DNA of 45,366 nt from Enterobacteria phage HK225. Positions 29,244 to 41,267 of the stretch are shown here, one piece after another; position 1 is the stretch's first letter; every line of letters starts with the position of its first letter. A program made the position numbers and the translations under genes. The notes below the pieces were generated by a model. It made no database searches and was not told where the DNA came from. It worked only from the letters and a program-made list of their open reading frames with translations. The stretch is from sequence record NC_019717.1. One strand, given 5' to 3'.

Positions 29244-29358
29244 GTGAGATCCTCATTTTTGGGTGTTAGAATCCCCGGACCATTGATAGCGCCCATTGGG
29301 TTAACTTTGGTTTTAATGTTGTTTCCGGTGTAACTTTGGTCGGTGAGGCCGGACATGG

Positions 29359-29385
29359 CGGGCCCACTTCGGTGGGCTTTCGCTT
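29359..29385 (+). terminator. hairpin at the 3' end of ORF 29384..29671 (terminator-like on + strand)
   Basis: GCCCAC-ttcg-GTGGGC followed by TTTCGCTT. Confidence 0.3.
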
Positions 29386-30155: not shown

Positions 30156-30314
30156 GATTTCCTCTTGGCCTTATCGCGGCGAACGGAACGGTTAATACAA
30201 GACTTCAACGCATTTATTCAGTGTTTCAATGGGCGGTGGATGGCCGCCGATTGTCATAACTAAGCCGCCTCGGTGAAGCGACTGAGGTATGAAAAAACCC
30301 GCCGTGGCGGGTCT

Positions 30315-30635
30315 TCAGAAATAGTCTTTATGGTCGTGCATCGCTCGCTGGAGGATCACCTTTGCATCTTCAAAGCTGGCAGATTCAAAAGCCTCTCTTA
30401 TGGCCTTAGCCAGGCAAGTCGCATCGCTTTCATAGTCATCAGCTCTGCTTTCCCAGTTTGATGCCTCTTCTTCAGCCTCATAAAGGCGATCGCCATACTC
30501 GCACTCGAGTTCCTGGCGCACTTCATCACGAAGCTTCTCCTTGATGATTTCGGAGGCTTCTTCAATCGGCATTGTTTCCAGAATCGTCTCTGGCTGATGA
30601 GTGCCGTATTTCAGTGAGATATCAGTAGCAAACAT
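30315..30635 (-). CDS. hypothetical acidic protein
   Basis: ATG at 30635 preceded by GGAGG; track ORF extends upstream without SD; acidic C-terminal half. Confidence 0.45.
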   Translation of the reverse strand: MFATDISLKYGTHQPETILETMPIEEASEIIKEKLRDEVRQELECEYGDRLYEAEEEASNWESRADDYESDATCLAKAIREAFESASFEDAKVILQRAMHDHKDYF

Positions 30636-30644
30636 GCAACCTCC

Positions 30645-30670
30645 AAAAAAATGCCCGCGCGCTGGCGGGC
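30645..30670 (-). terminator. intrinsic terminator inside the leftward early operon
   Basis: on the minus strand GCCCGC-cagcgc-GCGGGC followed by AUUUUUUU, immediately upstream of the next SD. Confidence 0.6.
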
Positions 30671-30782
30671 CAAGAAGACTTTTCCAATCCAACCAGAACA
30701 GGATCATCGTCTCCTGTGTGGTTGAGATGGCAGTATTACCATCACCAAGCATCGGCACCCGGTGCTTGAGGCTGGCTCTGTC

Positions 30783-30799
30783 GTTACCCGCTGATGCGG
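30783..30799 (-). repeat. intercistronic hairpin element GTTACCCGCTGATGCGG, copy 1
   Basis: 17-bp exact direct repeat of the element at 31005; small stem-loop CCGC-tgat-GCGG right after a gene stop. Confidence 0.8.
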
Positions 30800-30988
30800 T
30801 TATGTCTCATCGACGCATGGAAGTGATTTCCAGTCGATATCGTTTTTTGCCGAATCCCACAGGCCTTTCTTTTTGTACTTTTCTGAGCATGGAATGCAGA
30901 TGTTGTAAGGCCTGCCAACCATGTTTACAGATATTCTCTGCATCTCTTCAGATGCCAGAAAGTACCCACAGAATTGACACTTGTGCAT
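30800..30988 (-). CDS. hypothetical zinc-finger protein
   Basis: 62-aa ORF with GGAGAG SD; CxxC...CxxC. Confidence 0.45.
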   Translation of the reverse strand: MHKCQFCGYFLASEEMQRISVNMVGRPYNICIPCSEKYKKKGLWDSAKNDIDWKSLPCVDET

Positions 30989-31004
30989 ACGTACTCTCCA
31001 CTTA

Positions 31005-31021
31005 GTTACCCGCTGATGCGG
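31005..31021 (-). repeat. intercistronic hairpin element GTTACCCGCTGATGCGG, copy 2
   Basis: identical 17-mer 222 bp from copy 1. Confidence 0.8.
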
Positions 31022-31045
31022 GAGAAATGCTTTATCTATCAGCTT

Positions 31046-31258
31046 CTACAACTCATCACGAATCTGTGAGAGTGTGCTGATCGCCTGGTAATGACCGCGA
31101 CGCTGCTCTTCTGTTTTGAACGCACGCATATCGTCTTTTATCGATGCGATTGCCTTATTCAGAACTTCCACTTGCGCTTCTTTAATCGCCTGTTTGCGTG
31201 GCTTCTGACGCTTCTTAGGAAGGTCTCTTAAACACGCCGGAATGTATGTCTGAGTCAT
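31046..31258 (-). CDS. hypothetical basic protein, first gene of the leftward early operon (N position)
   Basis: 70-aa ORF with AAGAGGA SD; Lys/Arg-rich N-terminal third. Confidence 0.45.
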   Translation of the reverse strand: MTQTYIPACLRDLPKKRQKPRKQAIKEAQVEVLNKAIASIKDDMRAFKTEEQRRGHYQAISTLSQIRDEL

Positions 31259-31562
31259 AAAAAATCCTCTTGTGATTCAGCCCAGCCCACTCAACTTCGA
31301 ATGGACTGGAATAAATCTGTTTGCGCTTCGCACCTCTCATCCTGCCAGTGTTGCCCGTTCTCACGCCGTTATCGCTCTCGCGCGGGGATACTCTCTCACC
31401 GACCGGATCGCACCCGGTGATACAGCACGTTTTCGTGTAGGGGTCTTAACAGGTCATTGACGCTGTAAATCTGCATGTTGTTAAAAAGCAGGCGACTTAC
31501 TGTCCGCCGCTGGCTAACTTCGCTCAGCTGTCGATGTTTCGTTTCGATGGGATAATTAAACA

Positions 31563-31645
31563 TCATGTGGATTTATAGGTCAACACCTTGTGGATTTATT
31601 TTGTTGATTTAATCGTTTTTTGTTGATTTTTATGTTGATTTATTT
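31563..31645. promoter_or_regulatory. OL-like operator/promoter region with five direct 9-bp repeats
   Basis: ATGTGGATT / TTGT(G/T)GATT at about 31565, 31588, 31601, 31620 and 31632; same motif as in the cI-cro intergenic region. Confidence 0.55.
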
Positions 31646-31692
31646 TTTGGTGGCATAAGTGATATGCTGCAAAAAACATCAGGAGGTGGCTA

Positions 31693-31898
31693 TGGAACGT
31701 GATGAACTTGCAGATGACCGGATGGCCTTCATGGCTGGAGAGGTTGGGTGTGTGGTGTTCGAACTGATTTACAACGGGATTGAGATCAACAAAGACAACA
31801 TTGTGGGATTTCTGGAAGGGAAGCGTAAAGCCGTCGGGAACGTGATCCACAAGGGGGTGCTACGGGATGCGGCTGAGATGGTACGGAAGGGCAAATAA
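31693..31898 (+). CDS. hypothetical protein transcribed rightward from the OL region
   Basis: ATG at 31693 preceded by AGGAGG (track ORF starts 31659); 68 aa; ends at a bidirectional terminator. Confidence 0.45.
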
Positions 31899-31929
31899 AA
31901 ACCCGGCGCGGTGGCCGGGTTTATTTATT
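31897..31929. terminator. bidirectional intrinsic terminator
   Basis: AAAA-ACCCGGC-gcggtg-GCCGGGT-TTATTTATT between convergent genes. Confidence 0.7.
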
Positions 31930-32575
31930 GCTTAGGAGCTTGTTGTGATGACGATTGGTTAGTTGGAGCGCTCGTTAATGGTTGCTGTGTCGGTACCTGT
32001 ATTATAATTGGAGCCGGGCTGGTTACTGATGGTGACTTGTCATTGCCGGAGATAATCCAACTTGAGGCTAACATCACGCCAGACAGAATCACAGTAACTA
32101 AAGTCAAGCCAACGGCCATCGCCCACTGAGTCGTTGTAAGTCCCGTTTTCAAACCGCCGATTTCACCTTTAATTTCAGCAATACCTCTCTCAATAGAAGA
32201 AAATTGCTGAGTATAATAGGTTTTAAAGTCAGCTGATTCGCGACGCATTTCCGCAGCAATAGACTCTACCTCTGATTTGTTTTGTGAAAGCTTTGCGTCA
32301 AGTTCTTCTCTGGACATTCCGCTCACGCTTACCTCCAGGGTATCACTCTTCATCGCTACATCTTCCTTACTTGGGCGCAAACCCGTTTCGTCCATGGCGT
32401 ATGAAACTCTATTTGATACCTTAGCATCAATACCAATACTTTGGTACTGAGATGGATCCCCATAAGGAGAAACGGTTGTCGCTGCTAGGGTTGCACTAAC
32501 TATAATACTTGGAAGAACTGATGATGTTGTTCCTGAGGTAGGTTGAACTGAAGAAACTGGCTTCAGTCTTTCCAT
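31925..32575 (-). CDS. hypothetical membrane protein (S/T-rich N-terminus, coiled-coil, one TM, P/S/Q-rich C-tail)
   Basis: 216-aa ORF; hydrophobic AMAVGLTLVTVILSGVMLASSWII; AT-rich; start overlaps the upstream ORF by 13 nt. Confidence 0.5.
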   Translation of the reverse strand: MERLKPVSSVQPTSGTTSSVLPSIIVSATLAATTVSPYGDPSQYQSIGIDAKVSNRVSYAMDETGLRPSKEDVAMKSDTLEVSVSGMSREELDAKLSQNKSEVESIAAEMRRESADFKTYYTQQFSSIERGIAEIKGEIGGLKTGLTTTQWAMAVGLTLVTVILSGVMLASSWIISGNDKSPSVTSPAPIIIQVPTQQPLTSAPTNQSSSQQAPKQ

Positions 32576-32829
32576 AGCCCATTATCCCTGAGAGCTACCT
32601 GTAATGATTTTACTAATGCAACAGCTTGATCCGGGCTCATTGAGACTGACATGTTAGGGGTCAACTCAACTTTTACTTGGAAGCTATTCTTTCCTTGCTC
32701 ATCAGACTGCATGTGATGCTCAAATTCATGGCGGTAAAAAGTAATGATTGTTTCAGCACGATCAGGCGTAATAAGAACTGATGTGGCGGTCATGTGCTGA
32801 GGTATGATTTTAATAGTGTTATCTGACAT
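32563..32829 (-). CDS. hypothetical protein (88 aa from the SD-preceded ATG)
   Basis: track ORF 32563..32970; only the ATG at 32829 has a good SD (AAGGA); alternative starts at 32865 or 32871. Confidence 0.4.
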   Translation of the reverse strand: MSDNTIKIIPQHMTATSVLITPDRAETIITFYRHEFEHHMQSDEQGKNSFQVKVELTPNMSVSMSPDQAVALVKSLQVALRDNGLWKD

Positions 32830-33024
32830 AAGTATCCTTTTTGTTTCCTTAGTATTTTTTTGCATTGACATCAGAAATAGCGAATCCACAAGAGTATGAG
32901 TAAAGCTAATCAGTTTAGTGATACGGTGACTATTAAAGTGGTAAACCACATCAAAGCTCGCAGAGTGCATACCAGGCTGTCACACATGACAAAGTAACGA
33001 GGATGCCTGATCTCATAGCGCTCA

Positions 33025-33177
33025 AAGAGACATGCCGATAATGGCATTAACCACGCATGACGCCATAAACACGCCGCCAACGATGAAGCTGGCTTGGTTC
33101 TTCCTGGTAGCGCCAAGAGTCAACAGAACCACTGAAAGGGCAAAAAAAGGTATCGCGATTATGCTGAACGTGTTCAT
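33025..33177 (-). CDS. small hydrophobic peptide (51 aa, two predicted TM), not in ORF track
   Basis: hand-translated MNTFSIIAIPFFALSVVLLTLGATRKNQASFIVGGVFMASCVVNAIIGMSL; GAGG SD 5 nt upstream; immediately downstream of cI. Confidence 0.35.
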
Positions 33178-33281
33178 GTTGACCTCAACTTATTTCGATT
33201 CTCCATCACCCTTAATCCGCCGCCCCATGTGTTTGTTGTGATCCGTTGCTGGCCTTAACCAAACGTCTCTTCAGGCCACCG

Positions 33282-34029: not shown

Positions 34030-34105
34030 AACATGTGGATTTTTTCCATCACCATAATGTTGATTTAATCCACATCATGAATTAACATGGTGTTGATTAC
34101 ACATG
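34030..34105. promoter_or_regulatory. OR-like operator region between cI and cro
   Basis: 19-bp near-palindrome ATGTTGATTTAATCCACAT at 34057-34075 plus half-sites ATGTGGATT (34033) and TGTTGATTA (34091). Confidence 0.6.
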
Positions 34106-34118
34106 AGCGGAGCAAAAC

Positions 34119-34340
34119 ATGATCAACAAAGAATCCAACGCAAGCACCCCGCTTGAGAAAGCCATTAATGCAGTGGGCGGCTCTCAAAAGGTGCTTGCTG
34201 AAAAGGTCGGCGTAACTCCACAGGCCATCAATATGCTTAAAAAGCGAGGTGGCAGCCTTCCAGTAACAAAAATGCGTAAGTACGAAGAAGTGACGGGGCT
34301 TCCTCGCGAAGTTCTATATCCAGGTATCTTTGCCGCCTAA
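34119..34340 (+). CDS. cro: Cro-like HTH regulator
   Basis: 73-aa ORF divergent from cI; HTH GGSQKVLAEKVGVTPQAINMLKK. Confidence 0.7.
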   Translation: MINKESNASTPLEKAINAVGGSQKVLAEKVGVTPQAINMLKKRGGSLPVTKMRKYEEVTGLPREVLYPGIFAA

Positions 34341-34369
34341 CGGCGGCCCTAACCACGAAAGGGAAAGCA

Positions 34370-34915
34370 ATGCATTCACTTGCGTATCAACAAGGTAACA
34401 AATTTTCGCCAACGGCGATGATTTACCAGAATCGCCGGGAGCCTGATTCCACGGCGTTAAACATCGATGGGATCCGCGCAGCCGTTCGCGCCTGGGCAGC
34501 TGATTGCCGAAGCCGTGAATTTGTCGCCGCGCTGATCGTGGAAGAGTGGCGGGCGTCCGGCGGAACCGGTCTGGATATCCCGACTGACTCGCACCGCCAG
34601 ATGCAGAAAGTGTTTCGATGGATTGATGGCGATACCGAATACGCCGCCAACAACATTCGCCAGCTGGCCCCGGCAATCATGTCGGTCCTGCCGCTGGAGT
34701 ACCGAAACCGTCTGGCGCCGCAGAACGACACGATGTCGCTGATCGCCTCTGCGATGAAAGAGTGTGCCGAGGCTAAACAGGCCGTGCTGCTGGACGCTCC
34801 AGAGCATCAGAAGCTCAAAGAGGTAAGCGAGGGTATAGCGTCGCTGTTCCGCCTCATGCCGGAGCAGGTAGGACCGCTGATGACGATGGTTACATCGATG
34901 CTGGGGGTTATATGA
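34370..34915 (+). CDS. CII-like regulator (YdaT-like)
   Basis: 181-aa ORF in the cII position; resemblance to YdaT-family proteins is recollection only. Confidence 0.4.
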   Translation: MHSLAYQQGNKFSPTAMIYQNRREPDSTALNIDGIRAAVRAWAADCRSREFVAALIVEEWRASGGTGLDIPTDSHRQMQKVFRWIDGDTEYAANNIRQLAPAIMSVLPLEYRNRLAPQNDTMSLIASAMKECAEAKQAVLLDAPEHQKLKEVSEGIASLFRLMPEQVGPLMTMVTSMLGVI

Positions 34916-35000
34916 GAGGCACAAGAAAAGAAAAAGCCCTTGAAGCGGTAACTTCAAAGGCCCTTATCACACTGTGTTACGGCAAGTAACGGGAGTAAGT

Positions 35001-35909
35001 ATGTCAAACACCGCTGAAATAATCAATTTCCCAAATAAAACCGAACAACCGGGAGGTCGTATGGCCGACCTGTCGAACGGGTATACCAAGGTCGCTAACG
35101 AGATCCAACAGCTTAAGCCTCGCCTGAGACTGTCAGGCCGAGAATGGCAATGTTTTGAGGCGGTGATCTGGCTTACCTACGGCTGGAACAAGAAACAGGA
35201 CCGCGTGACAAATACGGTTATTGCCGAGCTTACGGGCCTGAGCGATACGCATGTATCGGACGCGCTTAAGTCTCTCGCAGAACGCAAAATCATCTTTTCA
35301 CAGAAGCAGGGCATGATGAAAATCGTCGGTGTAAACACTGACCTTTCAGCATGGATTTTAGACAAACCGGAAACGGGAAGAAAATTCCCGAAAACGGGAA
35401 AATCCTTCCCGAAATCAGGAATAACCTTCCCGAAAACGGTAGACACCCAATACAAGAACAAGAACAGTATTAAAAGATCTTCGTCCGAGAATTCTGACGA
35501 ATCCTCTGACGCACGTCTGAAGAAATTTTTATTAACTCATCCTGAAGCTGCGGTCTACACACCATCCGGTGCGAAGTGGGGCTCTGCTGAAGACCTCGAG
35601 ACAGCTAAGTGGATTTCCTCCAGGGTGAAGCTGATTAACCCAACCTGCAAAGCCCCGGACATGACCTCCTGGTCTAACACTGTTCGCCTGATGCGCCAGA
35701 TAGACAACCGGTCGCACCAGGACATCTGCGCGCTGTATGACTGGGCTAGCAAACACCACTTCTGGCAGACCAACATCCTGAGTCCCGAAAGCCTGCGTAA
35801 GCAGTGGGACAAGCTGACAATGCAGCGTAACGCCGGAGGTGAGCAGCGCGCTGTCAAGCCAGATCTGGACTTCAACAACACTGACTGGGCCTATGGGGTG
35901 ATCCGATGA
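35001..35909 (+). CDS. O: replication initiation protein O
   Basis: ATG at 35001 after GGGAG; N-terminal replisome-organiser domain (LSGREWQCFEAVIWLTYGW); ori iterons embedded mid-gene as in lambda. Confidence 0.85.
   Translation: MSNTAEIINFPNKTEQPGGRMADLSNGYTKVANEIQQLKPRLRLSGREWQCFEAVIWLTYGWNKKQDRVTNTVIAELTGLSDTHVSDALKSLAERKIIFSQKQGMMKIVGVNTDLSAWILDKPETGRKFPKTGKSFPKSGITFPKTVDTQYKNKNSIKRSSSENSDESSDARLKKFLLTHPEAAVYTPSGAKWGSAEDLETAKWISSRVKLINPTCKAPDMTSWSNTVRLMRQIDNRSHQDICALYDWASKHHFWQTNILSPESLRKQWDKLTMQRNAGGEQRAVKPDLDFNNTDWAYGVIR
35365..35485. other. origin of replication: four iterons plus AT-rich region inside O
   Basis: TTCCCGAAAACGGGAA-like palindromic repeats at about 35367, 35385, 35406 and 35428, followed by AT-rich sequence. 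Confidence 0.75.
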
Positions 35910-36595
35910 AATCTCTTGCAGAGCAGATGCGTAACCACGACCGCGAGCAGATGAGCCGCATGGCCCATAACCTGCCAGAGCAGTACCAGGAGTGCGCGCC
36001 GGTCGAGCAGGTGGCGCAGGTATTCAACAAGCTGTTCAACGAGCTGCGCGCCGCGTTCCCGGCCAGCATGGCGAACTTCCGCACCCAGGAAGACCTGAAC
36101 GAATTCCGCCGTCAGTGGCTGCTGGCGTTTCAGGAGAACGGGATCCACACCATGGCTCAGGTCGATGCCGGCATGCGCATTGCCCGCCGCCAGGAGCGCC
36201 CATTCCTGCCGTCGCCGGGCCAGTTCGTCGCCTGGTGCAAGCAGAGCGGCGGCGCGCTGGGCGTCAACGTTGACCAGGTGATCGCCGAATACTGGGACTG
36301 GCGTAACCGCTCGTTCGAATTCATCTCCAGCGAGCAATTTCCATGGTCGCAGCCGGTCATGTACCACATTTGCGTAGAATTGCGCCACCGCAGCACCGAG
36401 CGCCAGTTAACGCATGGTGAACTGGCACGCGAGGCAGGCGATCTGCTGGACATGTGGGAAAGGCGCGTCACCGAGGGTAAGCCAGTTCCGCCGGTACGCC
36501 GGGCTATTGCCGCACCAGCTGCCGAGCAAGGGCCGACGCCGATCCAGCTGCTGCTGGCCAAGTACAACCGCAACAAGTCGAACGGGATGGTGTGA
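35906..36595 (+). CDS. P: replication protein P (helicase loader)
   Basis: 229-aa ORF overlapping the O stop; long matches to recalled lambda P (RPFLPSPGQFVAWC). Confidence 0.85.
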   Translation: MKSLAEQMRNHDREQMSRMAHNLPEQYQECAPVEQVAQVFNKLFNELRAAFPASMANFRTQEDLNEFRRQWLLAFQENGIHTMAQVDAGMRIARRQERPFLPSPGQFVAWCKQSGGALGVNVDQVIAEYWDWRNRSFEFISSEQFPWSQPVMYHICVELRHRSTERQLTHGELAREAGDLLDMWERRVTEGKPVPPVRRAIAAPAAEQGPTPIQLLLAKYNRNKSNGMV

Positions 36596-36596
36596 C

Positions 36597-36938
36597 ATGA
36601 ACATAACAATCCGTGAGCAGGTGCTGGCAGCCCTGCGTAACAACCCGTGCCTGAACAGTGCTCGTATTGCCAGCATGATCGGCATGACCACCAAAAAGAT
36701 ATCCGGAACGGTGAGCACGCTGCTGGCAGACGGCTTGATCGAGTTCGAAGGCAAGCACGGACAGCGGCTTTATCGGCTGACCGATTACGGCATGAAATAC
36801 GCACCAGAAACAATCCCGGCTATGCCGAAGGGAAATTCGAAGCTGGTGCAGCGTACAGAGGCAAACGTGATCTGCCAGGAGTGCCGCAACAGCGCGGCGA
36901 TGAGAAGAATTTTAAGCGTATACGGGGTGAGAGCATGA
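36597..36938 (+). CDS. hypothetical winged-helix DNA-binding protein
   Basis: ATG 1 nt after the P stop; 113 aa; track ORF 36414 is an overlapping-frame extension. Confidence 0.5.
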   Translation: MNITIREQVLAALRNNPCLNSARIASMIGMTTKKISGTVSTLLADGLIEFEGKHGQRLYRLTDYGMKYAPETIPAMPKGNSKLVQRTEANVICQECRNSAAMRRILSVYGVRA

Positions 36939-37366
36939 AACCAACCTATGAAGAACTTGAGCAGCAGCTTGCAGAATCACATCGCGCTCTGCGTGCAGAG
37001 ACTACTGCTCACGATCACGTGAAGATGCATCTGGAGAAGATGGCTGCGGAGAATGTGGGGCTGAAAGAATATCTGGCCCCAGTAGGGCTAGCGGTAGAGG
37101 GAACCCCAGCAACAGACGCTTTCCTGGCTGAAGTGCGGGCGCAAGCCCACAAGGAAGGCGCTCACTTTGTTGCTAACAGGATGCTGGCCGCATGGGAGGC
37201 TGGGTTTATCGATGATACGGCGAAGAACGCAGCTGATATTGCGAGAATGATCCTTACCTCCACAGAGTTTATGGCTGATGCTCCCGAAGGTGATTACGAT
37301 CGCTCGTTCGCTGATGGCGTACTCGAAGACATCGCTGCCCAGCTTCGCAAAGGAGTGCAGTCATGA
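36935..37366 (+). CDS. hypothetical protein
   Basis: ATG overlapping the previous stop (ATGA); 143 aa. Confidence 0.5.
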   Translation: MKPTYEELEQQLAESHRALRAETTAHDHVKMHLEKMAAENVGLKEYLAPVGLAVEGTPATDAFLAEVRAQAHKEGAHFVANRMLAAWEAGFIDDTAKNAADIARMILTSTEFMADAPEGDYDRSFADGVLEDIAAQLRKGVQS

Positions 37367-37548
37367 AAAACCGTAAAGCAAAAATCATCGTTCTGCGTGC
37401 TTTGAGAAACTGCTATCCGCGCCAGTGGCTGAACGTAAGCAATCGCCGCATGGTTCTCTTCTCGCTCGGTGGCGTGACCCGCGAAGGGCATCAATTCAAA
37501 AATAGCTCAGCCCAGAATCGCTGGAAGAATCATGTGAGGTTCCAATGA
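37363..37548 (+). CDS. hypothetical small basic protein
   Basis: 61-aa ORF overlapping the previous stop. Confidence 0.4.
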   Translation: MKNRKAKIIVLRALRNCYPRQWLNVSNRRMVLFSLGGVTREGHQFKNSSAQNRWKNHVRFQ

Positions 37549-37988
37549 GCAACATCGACAAACGTGGATTACGGGAAGCAGCGGAGAAGGCGACGAAAGG
37601 CCGGTGGGCTGTTGAGTTCGACGATGAGATTTACTCCACTGACGGCGTGAACCATGAGCAAATAGCCATGGTATTCAGTGAAAACGAAGCGCGTGATGCT
37701 GCATTTATCGCCGCAGCCAACCCCGCCACCGTACTGGCGCTGTTGGATGAGCTGGAAGCCGCAGAGAAGCGCATAGCAGAACTGGAAGCGAATAAGTGTA
37801 AGCCAGTGATGTTTATTGATGGCGATATATCGCCTGCTGACGCTGACAAGTTGGCTGCTGTAATTCGCGAGTTCAACGAAGAAACAGAAACCCCTGCGGC
37901 TCGAATGGCGCGGATTATTCGCGAGAACCCGCATCCAACTAACATGTGCGATATGCCAGCCGCTGGCATTGGCGTGAAGGGGGAATGA
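37545..37988 (+). CDS. hypothetical protein (possibly Ead/Ea22-like)
   Basis: 147-aa ORF, translationally coupled; family assignment is recollection only. Confidence 0.4.
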   Translation: MSNIDKRGLREAAEKATKGRWAVEFDDEIYSTDGVNHEQIAMVFSENEARDAAFIAAANPATVLALLDELEAAEKRIAELEANKCKPVMFIDGDISPADADKLAAVIREFNEETETPAARMARIIRENPHPTNMCDMPAAGIGVKGE

Positions 37989-37989
37989 G

Positions 37990-38367
37990 ATGGCACTGAC
38001 GAAAAAACAGCGTGCAGAACTGCGCATGAAGTTTGGCGGTCGCTGTGCTTATTGCGGCTGTGAACTTGGCGATAAGTGGCATGCAGACCATGTAGAAGCG
38101 GTACGAAGAAATATCAGCAACGGCTACGCAATGGACAGGCCAGAAAATGACACGGTCAGCAACATGGTTCCAGCATGCATTCCATGCAACTTGTTCAAAA
38201 TGTGCAGCACAGTAGAAGACTTTCGCAGCCGCATAGCCACTCAGGTTGATGTAACTCGCCGTGCGTCAAGAAGTTACCGCACAGCGGAATCATTTGGCCT
38301 GGTTAAACAGACTAACGCACCAGTTGTGTTCTGGTTCGAGCGGTATCAAGAGGGGGATAACTTGTGA
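37990..38367 (+). CDS. HNH endonuclease
   Basis: CAYCGCEL...WHADHV...ACIPCN: two Cys pairs flanking an HxxH/N motif. Confidence 0.75.
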   Translation: MALTKKQRAELRMKFGGRCAYCGCELGDKWHADHVEAVRRNISNGYAMDRPENDTVSNMVPACIPCNLFKMCSTVEDFRSRIATQVDVTRRASRSYRTAESFGLVKQTNAPVVFWFERYQEGDNL

Positions 38368-38582
38368 CCAAAATATTCCTGAAGAATTATCCGCGCCAAA
38401 GCCGTGTTAAAGAGGCTCTATTTTTCCTTCTCTTTCTTATTTTAATGATTCCAATATCACCGATAGTCCTCATCTGGTTAGCAGGAGAACAGGCAGAAAA
38501 AATAGCTGAATGGTATAGCTCCATCGTATGGGGACCATTTAAAAAAATGCACAACAAATTAAATCCATACAGGGAGGGCTAA
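38364..38582 (+). CDS. small membrane protein (AT-rich)
   Basis: 72-aa ORF starting at GTG after GGGGGA; hydrophobic LFFLLFLILMIPISPIVLIWLAG. Confidence 0.4.
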   Translation: MTKIFLKNYPRQSRVKEALFFLLFLILMIPISPIVLIWLAGEQAEKIAEWYSSIVWGPFKKMHNKLNPYREG

Positions 38583-38585
38583 CCC

Positions 38586-39431
38586 ATGACCAAACTAACC
38601 AAAGAACGCTTGGAAGAAATCGCAGAGCTTGCAAGAAAGGCGACGTACAAGCCATGTGCAATGCACATGACGAATTTATTGGTAGTATGCGATAGCGAAG
38701 TTATCGAGGAAATGGCCCGCCAGTTGCTTGCAAGCATGGAGCAGGAGCCTGTGTCGTACACCTGTAGTGACGCGTTAGATGATGTTTACTGTGGTAGCGC
38801 AGCCATGATGGGGCCCGCTGGCGCTGTGGGAGAAGTACCACTCTACGCAGCACCACAGTTACCGCAGCCAGCGGTGTTATCAGTGTCTGAGGGCGTGCTT
38901 AAAAGCCTCTTACCCGATGTTGAGAAGTCCGAGTTCTGGTTTGAGCATAATGGGAAAATCTTTTTTGAAGGTGTGAGGTTTAACAATGCGGTATTTGAAG
39001 CCTGCCGCGCCGCCATGCTTCAGGCCGAACCTGTAAGTAATAGTGATGAGTTACCGCTGGACTATCTGCAAGGACACAAAGACGGCCTTGAGTGGGCTGC
39101 ACAATTGGCAGAAGCCAATCATCCGCAAACAGGTGACTGGTTGTACGACGACCCAATCGATCTTGCCAGGGCGATTCGCAAAGGTCCGGATATGCCTACT
39201 GTTCAGGGTGGCAACTCTCCGGTGATTCCGGATGACGTACGCCGCATGGACTGGCTGGTATCGAAAACCGTTGATGTTCGTGAGCCTATGGTTTACGGAA
39301 GCCATAGCCTTTTCTGGTCGCAGACCATCACGGATGAAGAGGATGATTATCACGCGACTAAATTACGCGAGCAAATCGATGCGGCTATGGCAGCTGAGCA
39401 GGCAGCTGCACCGCAGCAGGAGGCCGAATGA
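38586..39431 (+). CDS. hypothetical protein
   Basis: 281-aa ORF with GGAGGG SD. Confidence 0.5.
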   Translation: MTKLTKERLEEIAELARKATYKPCAMHMTNLLVVCDSEVIEEMARQLLASMEQEPVSYTCSDALDDVYCGSAAMMGPAGAVGEVPLYAAPQLPQPAVLSVSEGVLKSLLPDVEKSEFWFEHNGKIFFEGVRFNNAVFEACRAAMLQAEPVSNSDELPLDYLQGHKDGLEWAAQLAEANHPQTGDWLYDDPIDLARAIRKGPDMPTVQGGNSPVIPDDVRRMDWLVSKTVDVREPMVYGSHSLFWSQTITDEEDDYHATKLREQIDAAMAAEQAAAPQQEAE

Positions 39432-39763
39432 ACGATTTCGTTAAGCGAATTCAGCGTCTTGAGGCGGAGCGTGGTAAGACCATCACCACTGAGGTGGAGC
39501 TTGTCTCTTACGTCAAAGAGCGCAGCACTAGAAGCTCTGAGGCTCGTTACTACGTTAAGCACAGCAACCAACAGACGGTGCTTGAGCAGGGAATGGTGAT
39601 AAACAGAGATGGGTTTGGTAATCATCAAGCCAGCATCATCATCACTGATTTTCCGGGGCAGAAAACTCCGGAAGACGCGGCGCTCAAACTGGCTGATTGG
39701 TTAAAGCGCCTAGGAGAGTCCATCGAGGCTAATTTCAAAAAGCCAGAGGTGGATGATGCCTAA
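39428..39763 (+). CDS. hypothetical protein
   Basis: 111-aa ORF overlapping the previous stop. Confidence 0.5.
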   Translation: MNDFVKRIQRLEAERGKTITTEVELVSYVKERSTRSSEARYYVKHSNQQTVLEQGMVINRDGFGNHQASIIITDFPGQKTPEDAALKLADWLKRLGESIEANFKKPEVDDA

Positions 39764-39976
39764 CCCATTCGACGCATAACTAAACGTCAAGCAACGTTTG
39801 ATAAAACACTATCAACGAGCCATAATAAATCTGCCAGCGGCCTGAACAACCCTGGCAGACTTCTGCGCATTTAAGGGGACTTAAATGCGACCACAATCTG
39901 AACTCCTCACCTTGTCACAGATGCAGAAATGCACCTGCGATTTTCTGCATTCTGCGGCTTCCGTTAAGGAGGCCGT

Positions 39977-40432
39977 ATGATTATCCCCAAAGACGGCATC
40001 AAGCTACACCGTGGAAATCTTGGTGCTATCACTCAGCATCTGAAGCCACTTCTCGAAAACGGTGAGTGCTTCCGGCTCCAACTCAAAGACTGGCGCGAGA
40101 AGAGAAGCCTTTCACAAAATAGTCTGAGCCACGTTTGGTACAAGGAAATAAGCGACTACCTGATCAAGTCTGGGCGCACTGACGCAACGCCTGCATGGGT
40201 AAAGCGAAACCTCAAAAAAACTTATCTGGGTTATGAAGAGGTTGAGTACACCGATTTCGTCACCGGAATTAAGACGATTGAATTAGAACTCCGCCACACG
40301 TCCGATCTGGACACTGGCGACATGCACCATTTCATGTGCCAGGTGGAAGGCTGGTGCGCTCAGTTTGGCCTGGTGCTCACAATCCCTCAAAGCAGCGAAT
40401 TTCAGGTGCTGCGCGATAAGCAGGAGGCCTGA
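39977..40432 (+). CDS. ninB: NinB-like recombination protein
   Basis: 151-aa ORF; KRSLSQNSLSHVWYKEIS resembles the NinB RNRSLDQN region. Confidence 0.55.
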   Translation: MIIPKDGIKLHRGNLGAITQHLKPLLENGECFRLQLKDWREKRSLSQNSLSHVWYKEISDYLIKSGRTDATPAWVKRNLKKTYLGYEEVEYTDFVTGIKTIELELRHTSDLDTGDMHHFMCQVEGWCAQFGLVLTIPQSSEFQVLRDKQEA

Positions 40433-40602
40433 TGTCAACTCCACTTTCCCGCGTCATCACAAACGAAATCTTTCGCGTTCCGGCGCGCCGCAAGCCTAAG
40501 CCCGCGGTTAAGCCGTCCGATATCCCGACCCTGAAAGACTACACCGCCCGCCTGGTGGATCAGAAATGGCTGCGTCTCGCAGCGAGGAGAAAATCAGCAT
40601 GA
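40432..40602 (+). CDS. small basic hypothetical protein (56 aa, not in ORF track)
   Basis: ATG overlaps the ninB stop, CAGGAGG SD; stop overlaps the phosphatase start. Confidence 0.3.
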
Positions 40603-41267
40603 GCATGTATCAACGAATTAATGGCGCTGACTGGCGCAATATCTTCGTCGTCGGCGATCTGCATGGGTGCTACACGCTGCTGATGAATGAGCTCGAAAAG
40701 GTTTCGTTCGACCCTGCGCGTGATTTGCTGATCTCGGTTGGTGACCTTGTTGACCGCGGCGCGGAAAACGTCGAGTGCCTGGATCTGATTACTATGCCGT
40801 GGTTCAGGGCAGTGCGCGGTAACCATGAGCAGATGATGGTTGATGGGCTTTCAGAGCATGGAAACGTCAATCACTGGCTGGTAAACGGTGGCGGTTGGTT
40901 CTTCAATCTCGACTATGACAAAGAGGTGCTGGCTAAGGCTCTGGTTCACAAGGCAGCTGAGTTACCACTCATCATCGAGCTGGTTACCTCCGATCGGAAA
41001 ATCGTAATTTGCCACGCTGACTACCCGCATAACGAATATGCGTTCGACAAGCCGGTCCCGAAAGACATGGTCATCTGGAATCGTGAGCGGGTTAGCGACG
41101 CTCAGGGCGGCATTGTCTCGCCGATAGCCGGTGCTGATCTGTTTATCTTCGGCCACACCCCTGCGCGCCAGCCCCTGAAGTATGCCAACCAGATGTACAT
41201 CGACACAGGAGCGGTGTTTTGCGGAAACCTCACGCTGGTTCAGGTGCAAGGTGGTGACCATGAGTAA
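40599..41267 (+). CDS. Ser/Thr protein phosphatase (lambda PPase / NinI-like)
   Basis: ATG at 40599 after GAGGAGA; metallophosphatase motifs GDLHG, GDLVDRG, GNHE; 222 aa. Confidence 0.85.

What the first reader, a model, noticed from the sequence alone, without database searches (positions are those of the whole stretch)
31046..31560. About 300-bp untranslated leader between OL and the first leftward gene, and a basic 70-aa protein at the N position
The first gene of the leftward operon (31046-31258) encodes a small Lys/Arg-rich protein and is preceded by about 300 bp with no convincing ORF but several inverted repeats (for example TCACCG-N13-CGGTGA). This is where lambda has nutL and N. The sequence does not show an obvious lambda-type boxA/boxB, so antitermination may use a different RNA element or factor.
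Basis: inference. Interest (0 to 1): 0.4.

Follow-up and report, generated by a model that had tools for sequence, protein, structure and literature searches.

The report
Conserved structured leader RNA replacing N
The untranslated leader of this phage's leftward early operon carries a widespread, conserved folded RNA with a host-factor binding site (boxA), probably an anti-termination signal that works without the usual phage N protein, and the small basic protein next to it is not an N protein.

Summary
The leader (about 291 nt, PL start near 31549 to ATG 31258) and the 70-aa basic ORF (31046-31258, minus strand) are real. The claim of "no boxA/boxB" is wrong. Window 31341-31681 is 97-98% identical to the phage phi80 OL/PL/nutL region. 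It has an rrn-type boxA (TGCTTTTTAACAA, 31490-31478) and the hairpin annotated in phi80 as "nutL core" (31437-31426).

The module occurs once per phage in more than 150 viral contigs. Pairing holds in 97% of cells, and 13 of 21 modelled pairs show compensatory changes. It is absent from Rfam.

The genes downstream of the module differ between lineages. The window has no N homologue. The 70-aa protein (phrog_5305, a predicted helical hairpin) sits directly after genuine N genes in other lambdoid phages, and so does the phi80 "N" family. The RNA module therefore occupies the slot of nutL plus N.

Best reading, which is inferred and not shown: a boxA-linked cis-acting RNA that lets PL transcription read through the terminators at 30670-30645 and 30314-30288 without a phage protein.

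The parts
31555..31640 (.). OL: three CI operators (about 31555-31573, 31578-31596, 31621-31640). They overlap PL, whose -35 is TTGACC at 31584-31579 and whose -10 is TTAATT at 31560-31555 on the minus strand.
   Evidence: Coordinates were transferred from the phi80 annotation (JX871397) across a gap-free alignment at 97.4% identity.
31259..31549 (-). Untranslated PL leader, about 291 nt.
   Evidence: The start is inferred from the -10 position. There are no family hits for ORFs in the leader. The sequence was read.
31505..31550 (-). 5' leader segment that is shared as a separate module with HK639 and with Enterobacter phages.
   Evidence: (95.7-100% identity over the first 46 nt).
31491..31508 (-). 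Hairpin GGCG-N10-CGCC lying immediately 5' of boxA, in the same order as boxB-boxA in rrn leaders.
   Evidence: The sequence is not conserved across the family.
31478..31490 (-). boxA, TGCTTTTTAACAA. It matches the rrn boxA TGCTCTTTAACAA at 12 of 13 positions.
   Evidence: A boxA-like sequence lies 44-49 nt upstream of GACCCC in 120 of 125 related loci, although boxA was not part of that search pattern.
31340..31490 (-). The whole conserved RNA module: boxA, a spacer and the structured domain.
   Evidence: The covariance model scores 155 bits (E 4e-33) and finds a single copy in the window. Family alignments are A4, A5 and A9.
31341..31453 (-). Structured domain closed by two helices. P1 pairs CCUGUU (31453-31448) with GGCAGG (31346-31341). 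P2 pairs CCC (about 31441-31439) with GGG (about 31356-31354).
31426..31437 (-). H1: a 4-bp stem with an A-rich loop (CACG-AAAA-CGUG). It is annotated as 'nutL core' in phi80 and is boxB-like.
   Evidence: Two of its four pairs show compensatory changes.
31396..31420 (-).
   Evidence: Six of its eight pairs show compensatory changes and 99% of cells are paired.
31366..31385 (-). H3: a hairpin of variable length, CCG[CGC-GAGA-GCG]AUAACGG.
   Evidence: It folds as a hairpin in 16 distinct sequence variants with different stems.
31274..31317 (-). Strong hairpin just upstream of the ribosome-binding site of the 70-aa gene.
   Evidence: z = -3.2; 1 of 200 shuffles folds as well.
31046..31258 (-). 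70-aa basic protein of phrog_5305. It is a predicted helical hairpin of unknown function and is not N.
31005..31021 (-). Hairpin motif CCGCATCAGCGGGTAAC, copy 1, upstream of the Zn-ribbon gene.
30800..30988 (-). 62-aa putative zinc-binding protein (phrog_19863; named 'ECs_2282 family' in RefSeq).
30783..30799 (-). Hairpin motif CCGCATCAGCGGGTAAC, copy 2, directly after the Zn-ribbon gene.
30645..30670 (-). Intrinsic terminator tL1: GCCCGC-N6-GCGGGC followed by U7. The next gene's Shine-Dalgarno sequence and ATG follow immediately.
30288..30314 (-). Second intrinsic terminator: CCCGCC-ACG-GCGGG followed by U6, after the 106-aa gene.

Best explanation
The leader is the phi80-type 'nutL' region. 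Its core is a discrete RNA module of about 150 nt that occurs once per phage. The module consists of an rrn-consensus boxA, a spacer of about 25 nt, and a compact domain of five helices (P1, P2, H1, H2, H3) with conserved junctions.

The most likely mechanism is as follows. As the module emerges from RNA polymerase just after PL, boxA recruits the host NusB-NusE (S10) pair, and through it NusG and NusA. The folded domain stays attached to the elongation complex, either directly as put RNA does, or through further host factors as in rrn operons. The polymerase then resists Rho in the long untranslated leader and resists the intrinsic terminators at 30670-30645 and 30314-30288. It can therefore reach kil, recE and recT.

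No phage N protein is needed in this model. The module takes the place that nutL plus an arginine-rich N gene occupies in related phages. The 70-aa protein is an unrelated accessory gene of the kind found after N elsewhere.

Shown here: the RNA family, its fold, its linkage to boxA, its single copy per phage, its independence from the downstream gene, and the absence of N. Inferred: the anti-termination activity and the lack of need for a phage protein.
For: Identity of the region:
- The leader is 98.6% identical over 210 nt to phi80, where GenBank M11919 marks a 278-bp 'nutL regulatory signal' and JX871397 marks boxA and a nutL core.

The RNA family and its fold:
- On 48 distinct sequences, 97.1% of cells are paired and 13 of 21 pairs show double compensatory changes. 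None of 500 shuffles reached these values, and structures slid by 1-3 columns gave only 30-45% pairing.
- H3 is a hairpin in all 16 variants.
- A boxA-like sequence lies at a fixed 44-49 nt from the domain in 120 of 125 loci, although boxA was not in that search pattern.
- There is exactly one copy in the window, in the phi80 genome and in each fetched related locus (which span only part of their contigs).

Independence from N and from the downstream gene:
- The first downstream gene differs between lineages.
- The phi80 'N' occurs in 7 of about 120 carrier loci. An N_peptide-type N occurs in 2 of 127.
- The window has no homologue of lambda N or phi80 N.
- Both 'first genes' found after the module are genes that follow a genuine N elsewhere, in loci that lack the module. 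The p70 family follows N directly in mEp213, mEpX2 and phi296. PF26859 follows N directly in Serratia and Proteus, and with one gene between in Erwinia phage 59.
- The Stx2a phages P13374 and phi191 are reported to lack N (PMC4122784), yet they carry the module.

Terminators:
- 67 of 89 distinct downstream contexts have a sense-strand intrinsic terminator within 2.5 kb, at a median of 475 nt. The density is twice that on the antisense strand.
Against: - No experiment here shows terminator readthrough.
- phi80 is annotated with an N protein and an N-utilisation site. The 1985 work behind that annotation may have shown N dependence, but I could not read it.
- Edno5-like phages carry both the module and an N_peptide gene two genes downstream. 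APSE-like loci have a conserved 44-aa arginine-rich ORF after the module. A protein partner is therefore possible in some lineages.
- H1 resembles a boxB, with a short stem and an A-rich loop.
- The predicted folding energy of the window copy is not better than that of shuffled sequence, so the fold rests on comparative evidence only.
- Both search patterns fixed some motifs, which inflates their apparent conservation.
Confidence: 0.5

Rival explanations
1. This is a classical protein-dependent nut site, and the 70-aa basic protein is its N-like factor. The protein would bind the leader RNA, for example at H1, and load onto RNA polymerase together with the Nus factors.
For: - It is the first gene after the module in the window and also in L018 (94% identity) and L073 (53%).
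- It is basic, with the patch KKRQKPRKQ.
- It is similar in size to N proteins.
- H1 is boxB-like.
Against: - It is not related to any N family.
- It is predicted to be a folded helical hairpin, whereas N is a disordered arginine-rich-motif protein.
- In mEp213, mEpX2 and phi296 it follows a real N by 4 nt.
- It is also found in Swiduovirus, Sasha-like and Vibrio phages; in swi2 it lies beside the terminase gene rather than in an early operon.
- The RNA is 93-98% identical in phi80, KO-TP1 and TL-2011c, which have entirely different first genes.
Confidence: 0.1
2. This is an orphan nut site. The phage arose by recombination that replaced phi80 N, so the module is a non-functional remnant here. 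Leftward transcription would mostly stop at tL1, or the element may be a defective prophage.
For: - Homology with phi80 ends exactly at the 3' end of the module, at 31341.
- The phi80 records name N and nutL as a pair.
Against: - The combination of the module with p70 recurs in L018, where the module copy is clearly diverged, so it is not a one-off accident.
- More than 90% of carriers lack phi80 N, yet they keep the fold through compensatory changes.
- Stx2a phages reported to lack N carry the module.
- The PF26859 family occurs without the module in four other genera.
Confidence: 0.12
3. The folded RNA has a role other than anti-termination. It could be a processing or stability element for the PL transcript, a source of a regulatory small RNA or a decoy for a host factor, or a target of superinfection exclusion. 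In that case boxA alone would provide protection from Rho.
For: - Function has not been tested here.
- The module lies at the 5' end of a major early transcript.
- Stx prophages are known to produce regulatory small RNAs (general knowledge).
- About a quarter of downstream contexts (22 of 89) lack a detectable intrinsic terminator within 2.5 kb.
Against: - The tight, fixed-distance linkage to an rrn-type boxA.
- The position is the same as that of nut and put sites.
- The region is annotated as a nutL regulatory signal in phi80.
- Terminators are enriched downstream.
Confidence: 0.15
4. The module needs a phage factor that I did not recognise and that differs between lineages. In this view N-like proteins are too small and too divergent to detect, and in this window the factor is encoded elsewhere.
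For: - N proteins are notoriously diverse.
- Edno5-like loci have an arginine-rich candidate partner two genes downstream of the module, and APSE-like loci have one about 146 nt downstream.
Against: - RNA copies that are nearly identical (93-98%) sit before unrelated genes.
- None of the predicted genes between PL and recE has an N-terminal arginine-rich motif; the richest 12-residue windows hold 3 arginines.
- An HMM built from four N_peptide proteins found nothing in 125 of 127 carrier loci.
Confidence: 0.13

Closest known systems
Phage phi80 nutL region with gene N and terminator tL1 (GenBank M11919, X13065, JX871397)
   Same: - The RNA is the same: 98.6% identity over the first 210 nt of the PL transcript, with the same operators, boxA and 'nutL core' hairpin.
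- The module is a single leftward copy, with no nutR, and terminators lie downstream.
   Different: - The phi80 98-aa 'N' (Pfam PF26859) is absent from the window. An unrelated 70-aa gene follows instead.
- In phi80 only boxA and a 12-nt core are annotated. The five-helix fold, its covariation and its wide distribution are not part of that annotation.
Lambda-type N/nut anti-termination (lambda, phage 21, P22; Pfam N_peptide PF25694)
   Same: - The position is the same, just downstream of PL.
- A boxA is present.
- There is a small hairpin with an A-rich loop.
- Terminators lie downstream.
   Different: - There is no arginine-rich N gene.
- The hairpin lies about 40 nt from boxA and is embedded in a 113-nt multi-helix domain.
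- There is a single site rather than a nutL/nutR pair.
- boxA is of the rrn consensus type rather than the weaker lambda type.
HK022 and HK639 put RNAs (cis-acting antiterminator RNAs that act on RNA polymerase without protein factors)
   Same: - A structured RNA lies in the PL leader of lambdoid phages that lack N.
- It occupies the slot of nutL plus N.
- HK639 even shares the first 46 nt of the PL transcript with this window.
   Different: - No sequence or structure similarity was found. The covariance model finds nothing in the HK022 early region or at HK639 putL.
- The architecture differs: five helices against two stem-loops.
- This module has a boxA, which put lacks.
- This module occurs once, whereas HK022 has both putL and putR.
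E. coli rrn leader anti-termination (boxB-boxA-boxC with NusA, NusB, NusE, NusG, SuhB and S4)
   Same: - boxA is near-identical: exact in about half of the family, and one mismatch in the window.
- A hairpin lies immediately 5' of boxA.
- No phage protein is required in that system.
   Different: - The large structured domain 3' of boxA has no rrn counterpart.
- No boxC was recognised.
- Involvement of SuhB or S4 is untested.

Membership tests
Lambda-type N/nut system | A boxA (NusB-NusE site) in the early leader RNA. | tested here: met
   TGCTTTTTAACAA at 31490-31478 (minus strand) is the only exact match in the window. It is annotated as boxA in phi80.
Lambda-type N/nut system | A boxB hairpin (about 5 bp with a GNRA-like pentaloop) a few nucleotides 3' of boxA. 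| tested here: inconclusive
   H1 (31437-31426) has a 4-bp stem and an AAAA loop. However, it lies about 40 nt from boxA, inside a larger covarying fold.
Lambda-type N/nut system | An arginine-rich-motif N protein encoded just downstream. | tested here: not met
   The window has no homologue of lambda N or phi80 N. p70 has no N_peptide Pfam hit. An N_peptide HMM hits only 2 of 127 carrier loci.
Lambda-type N/nut system | Paired nut sites in the left and right early operons. | tested here: not met
   A covariance-model search with filters off finds one copy in the window and one in phi80. There is no second boxA on the PR strand.
Lambda-type N/nut system | N-dependent and Nus-dependent readthrough of terminators. 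| not testable with these tools
   This needs reporter assays or in vitro transcription.
phi80 nutL (as deposited in GenBank) | Sequence identity with the mapped nutL regulatory region. | tested here: met
   98.6% identity over 210 nt. M11919 feature 661-938 covers the module.
phi80 nutL (as deposited in GenBank) | The cognate phi80 N gene (PF26859) is present. | tested here: not met
   tblastn finds nothing below E = 3. p70 against phi80 N gives E = 11. hhalign probability is 3%.
HK022/HK639 put RNA | A cis-acting structured RNA in the PL leader of a lambdoid phage without N. | tested here: met
   Position and absence of N are shown. Cis action itself was not tested.
HK022/HK639 put RNA | The put sequence or its two-stem-loop architecture. 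| tested here: not met
   Model R1 gives no hit in the HK022 region 24-32 kb or at the HK639 putL locus. The fold here has five helices.
HK022/HK639 put RNA | Independence from protein factors, and dependence on the zinc-binding domain of the RNA polymerase beta' subunit. | not testable with these tools
   This needs an rpoC (Y75N) host or purified transcription.
rrn-type Nus/SuhB anti-termination leader | The consensus boxA, TGCTCTTTAACAA. | tested here: met
   12 of 13 positions match in the window. GCTCTTTAACAA is exact in 51 related loci and GCTTTTTAACAA in 59.
rrn-type Nus/SuhB anti-termination leader | boxB hairpin 5' of boxA and a boxC 3' of it. | tested here: inconclusive
   A hairpin at 31508-31491 abuts boxA but is not conserved in sequence. 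No boxC was sought systematically.
Any Rfam family | A score at or above a family's gathering threshold in the leader. | tested here: not met
   The gathering-threshold search of the whole window gives only isrB, elsewhere. A search of 30600-31700 at E up to 10 gives nothing over 31259-31549.
phrog_5305 (the 70-aa protein) | A full-length profile match. | tested here: met
   E 2.2e-35, residues 1-70 against profile positions 1-71 of 71. The function is unknown.

The most novel reading that the evidence does not exclude
The module is a third kind of phage anti-termination signal, alongside the lambda N/nut system and the HK022 put RNA. In this reading, a structured RNA tethered through an rrn-type boxA converts RNA polymerase into a termination-resistant form using host factors only. 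It has replaced nutL plus N in a large set of Enterobacterales temperate phages, including phi80, the N-less Stx2a phages of the O104:H4 outbreak type, and APSE of aphid symbionts. The phi80 protein called 'N' would then not be the antiterminator.
Probability: 0.4. Interest if true: 0.8.

Novelty: new variant of a known kind. Interest (0 to 1): 0.6.

Why it matters
Early anti-termination is the step that commits lambdoid phages to lytic gene expression. Only two solutions are well understood: N protein acting on nut RNA, and the protein-free put RNA of HK022.

A widespread, well-defined RNA family that combines a host-type boxA with a large conserved fold, and that sits where N would be in phages lacking N, would explain how such phages express their early-left genes. 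These phages include medically important Stx2a phages, and the phi80 remnant in common laboratory strains also carries the module.

The family would also give a compact new tool for reading through terminators, and a new substrate for structural work on elongation complexes. It also raises the possibility that the phi80 'N' family (Pfam 'Phage_N_antitermin') is misnamed.

The hypothesis can be tested directly with a simple reporter construct.

Tried and rejected
- **Rfam.** A gathering-threshold search and a search at E up to 10 found nothing in the leader.
- **Folding energy of a single sequence.** The whole leader gives z = -0.67 and the domain alone gives z = +0.36, so stability alone gives no support.
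- **Genome-contig scan.** My pattern had two wide gaps and was too loose. It returned 120 chance hits in unrelated taxa (L132-L251 should be ignored). I therefore have no systematic host taxonomy beyond the names in the phage collection: Escherichia, Shigella, Klebsiella, Enterobacter, Edwardsiella and Hamiltonella.
- **Literature.** Rotman 2012 (the phi80 genome paper) and a DOI I guessed for King 2011 (HK639 put) are not held. Tanaka & Matsushiro 1985 did not turn up in full-text searches. I could therefore not check whether phi80 N dependence was shown experimentally.
- **The 70-aa protein.** Pfam gave only sub-threshold noise. A sequence search of the PDB gave nothing. Foldseek against the PDB and BFVD gave only generic helical hairpins with E above 0.05. 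The exhaustive profile search gave only 16 relatives.
- **Coding test on the module.** Stop-free runs are uninformative for a 50-codon stretch. The argument against coding rests on length differences that are not multiples of three and on compensatory pairing.
- **A second, nutR-like copy.** None was found in the window, the phi80 genome or the fetched stretch of any related locus.
- **Homology to put RNA.** Rejected.

Full report
**What is at the coordinates**

The window is a lambdoid phage, a mosaic of phi80-, mEp237- and HK97-like segments. Window 31341-31681 is 97.4% identical to phi80. In phi80 that stretch carries the three OL operators, PL, a 'nutL boxA' and a 'nutL core'.

Transferring those features across a gap-free alignment places them as follows:
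- The operators lie at about 31555-31640.
- The PL -35 is TTGACC at 31584-31579 and the -10 is TTAATT at 31560-31555.
- The transcript therefore starts near 31549.
- The first credible start codon is the ATG at 31258, preceded by AGAGGA.

The only sizeable ORF in the leader (31396-31566) begins upstream of the transcription start and matches no family. The 70-aa ORF is real and basic, with 15 K+R and a pI of 9.8. It gives a full-length match to phrog_5305. The terminator at 30670-30645 is confirmed. A second terminator lies at 30314-30288.

A boxA is plainly present. TGCTTTTTAACAA at 31490-31478 on the minus strand matches the E. coli rrn boxA TGCTCTTTAACAA at 12 of 13 positions. It is the only exact hit to TGCTYTTTAAC in the window. 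The hairpin CACG-AAAA-CGUG at 31437-31426 is the one annotated as 'nutL core' in phi80. The older phi80 record M11919 marks a 278-bp 'nutL regulatory signal' that covers this stretch, followed by N and tL1.

**The leader contains a conserved, folded RNA module**

The stretch from boxA to 31340 is conserved well beyond phi80:
- It is 93-98% identical in phi80, Klebsiella phage KO-TP1 (which has different operators) and many Stx2a phages of the TL-2011c/P13374 type.
- It is 73-80% identical in Hamiltonella phage APSE and Edwardsiella phage Edno5.

A motif scan of viral contigs returned at least 120 loci. A second scan, anchored on different motifs, returned 33 more with more divergent interiors.

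Comparative folding gives two closing helices and three hairpins:
- P1: 31453-31448 paired with 31346-31341.
- P2: about 31441-31439 paired with about 31356-31354.
- H1: 31437-31426.
- H2: 31420-31396.
- H3: 31385-31366, variable in length.

On 48 distinct sequences aligned to a covariance model, 97.1% of cells are paired and 13 of the 21 modelled pairs show compensatory double changes. None of 500 shuffles reached these values. Structures slid by 1-3 columns gave only 30-45% pairing (earlier sets). H3 folds as a hairpin in all 16 distinct variants, with different stems.

A boxA-like sequence sits at a fixed 44-49 nt from the domain in 120 of 125 loci, although it was not part of that search pattern.

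Two caveats apply. Each pattern fixed some motifs, so their conservation is partly by construction. The folding energy of a single sequence is unremarkable.

Rfam 15 has no family for this RNA.

**Copy number**

With filters off, the model finds one copy in the window (155 bits; the next best hit is 8.6 bits). It finds one in the whole phi80 genome and exactly one in each of 95 related loci, which cover only part of their contigs. It finds none in mEp213, mEp237, HK639 or the HK022 early region. The window has no boxA or nut-like site in the rightward operon, and phi80 has no second module copy and no annotated nutR.

**The 70-aa protein is not N**

- It shows no similarity to lambda N or phi80 N. 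A profile comparison with the phi80 N family gives 3% probability.
- It has no arginine-rich motif. It is predicted with good confidence (pLDDT 85.5) as a two-helix hairpin with a basic N-terminal tail. It has no informative structural neighbours.
- Its family is small, with 16 representatives in 1.8 billion proteins.
- In mEp213, mEpX2 and phi296 the homologue starts 4 nt after the stop codon of a genuine P22/HK620-type N gene (Pfam N_peptide).
- Homologues also occur in Swiduovirus, Sasha-like and Vibrio phages, and in swi2 the gene lies next to the terminase gene rather than in an early operon.

**N is missing, and the module sits in its slot**

The window encodes no homologue of lambda N or phi80 N. 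None of the predicted genes between PL and recE has an N-terminal arginine-rich motif; the richest 12-residue windows hold 3 arginines.

Across carriers, the first downstream gene varies freely:
- a 98-aa protein in phi80;
- a 65-aa protein in KO-TP1;
- p70 in the window, L018 and L073;
- a Rha-like regulator in TL-2011c.

The phi80 'N' is found in only 7 of about 120 carrier loci. An HMM built from N_peptide proteins hits only the two Edno5-like loci out of 127.

The phi80 'N' family (precomputed Pfam PF26859, 'Phage_N_antitermin') is widespread in Enterobacterales prophages. In Serratia and Proteus it lies 3 nt after a genuine N_peptide gene. In Erwinia phage 59 it lies downstream of a phage-21-like N (GTAKSRYKARRA...SIPLI). 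None of those loci has the module.

So the two gene families that follow the module in phi80 and in this window are both 'the gene after N' elsewhere. The module occupies the place of nutL plus an arginine-rich N.

The Stx2a phages P13374 and phi191 are reported to lack N, cII and cIII (PMC4122784). Both carry the module.

**Link to termination**

In 67 of 89 distinct downstream contexts, a sense-strand intrinsic terminator follows within 2.5 kb, at a median of 475 nt. That is about twice the antisense density. In the window the terminators lie 673 and 1031 nt downstream of the module.

**Mechanism**

The best-supported reading is a cis-acting anti-termination RNA:
- boxA recruits NusB-NusE, as established for rrn and nut boxA.
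- The folded domain keeps the complex on the polymerase, either directly as put RNA does, or through host factors as in rrn leaders.
- PL transcription then resists Rho in the untranslated leader and reads through the two terminators.

The steps that are shown are the RNA family, the fold, the boxA linkage, the single copy per phage, the independence from the downstream gene, and the absence of N. The activity itself and its independence from phage proteins are inferred. I give this reading about 0.5.

The rivals are as follows:
- p70 is the factor (about 0.1). The contexts described above argue against it.
- The site is an orphan left after loss of phi80 N (about 0.12). Selection on the fold in N-less phages and the recurrence of the module-p70 pairing argue against it.
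- The RNA has a role other than anti-termination (about 0.15).
- There is an unrecognised factor that differs between lineages (about 0.13). This is kept alive by the N_peptide gene in Edno5 and by a conserved 44-aa arginine-rich ORF after the module in APSE-type loci.

**Comparison with known systems**

The RNA is the phi80 nutL region, so the locus itself is not new. It fails three defining features of lambda-type N/nut systems: there is no arginine-rich N, the boxB is not adjacent to boxA, and there is no nutR. It also shows no similarity to put RNA. Its boxA is of the rrn type.

What appears to be new is the recognition of a large covarying fold, its wide distribution, and its decoupling from any N gene. 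I therefore rate it as a new variant of a known kind. I could not read the 1985 and 2012 phi80 papers or the 2011 HK639 paper. Prior description of parts of this cannot be excluded.

**What failed**

The single genome-contig scan was wasted on a pattern that was too loose. Several key papers are not held. Searches for relatives or structural analogues of the 70-aa protein gave nothing useful.

Noticed in passing
window 29285-29382 (+): The only Rfam hit above gathering threshold in the window is isrB, an Hfq-binding small RNA (38.2 bits against a threshold of 35). It lies antisense to the leftward operon, just upstream of the recE start.
   Followed up: no
window 31693-31898 (+) and 31899-31922: A rightward 68-aa gene (phrog_3975, function unknown) is wedged between OL and the HK97 gp48/gp49-like genes. 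It is followed by a hairpin that reads as a terminator on both strands. How it is transcribed next to OL is unclear.
   Followed up: no
window 31021-31005 and 30799-30783 (-); also L001 3315-3331 and about 35 other loci: The 17-nt hairpin motif CCGCATCAGCGGGTAAC occurs twice and brackets the 62-aa zinc-ribbon gene like a cassette. The same motif lies once downstream of the leader module in many related phages. In phi80 it lies 17 nt before the start of 'N'. It could be a module boundary for recombination or an RNA processing site.
   Followed up: partly
window 31317-31274 (-): A strong 19-bp hairpin lies immediately upstream of the ribosome-binding site of the 70-aa gene (z = -3.2). It recalls the RNase III hairpin before lambda N.
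   Followed up: partly
L252, L255, L256, L257 (Proteus and Serratia prophages, Erwinia phage 59): The phi80 'N' family (Pfam PF26859, 'Phage_N_antitermin') lies downstream of genuine arginine-rich N genes in these loci, directly in Proteus and Serratia and with one gene between in Erwinia phage 59, so its name may be a misnomer carried over from the phi80 annotation.
   Followed up: partly
L007 about 420-555 (APSE-1); also L010, L094, L102: An unannotated, conserved 43-44-aa ORF with an arginine-rich stretch (NNHVRRLRYLRKLDALKRN) lies about 146 nt downstream of the module in APSE-1 and L010, and 1.5-2.3 kb downstream in L102 and L094. It is a possible small N-like partner in that lineage.
   Followed up: no
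window 31550-31505 (-); L008 2501-2546: The first ~46 nt of the PL transcript are shared (96-100% identity) with HK639, where they precede putL, and with Enterobacter phages. They form a separate exchangeable 5' segment ahead of the anti-termination element.
   Followed up: no
window 31890-33280: The stretch between OL and cI (the position of rexA/rexB in lambda) is 99.6% identical to HK97 gp48/gp49, inside an otherwise phi80-type immunity region.
   Followed up: no
window 34100-36500 (+); phi80 35400-41100: No boxA, nut-like site or intrinsic terminator was detected in the first 2.4 kb of the rightward early operon (34.1-36.5 kb). The phi80 annotation shows neither a nutR nor a rightward terminator before Q. 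Early anti-termination therefore seems to be confined to the left arm.
   Followed up: partly
E. coli genomes, e.g. NZ_CP025520.1 126809-127149: The leader module is present in the phi80 remnant of common laboratory strains (DH5alpha, DH10B, TOP10, NEB 5-alpha, JM83). In all, 267 of 5426 complete E. coli genomes match some part of the 30600-31700 query that contains the module.
   Followed up: no
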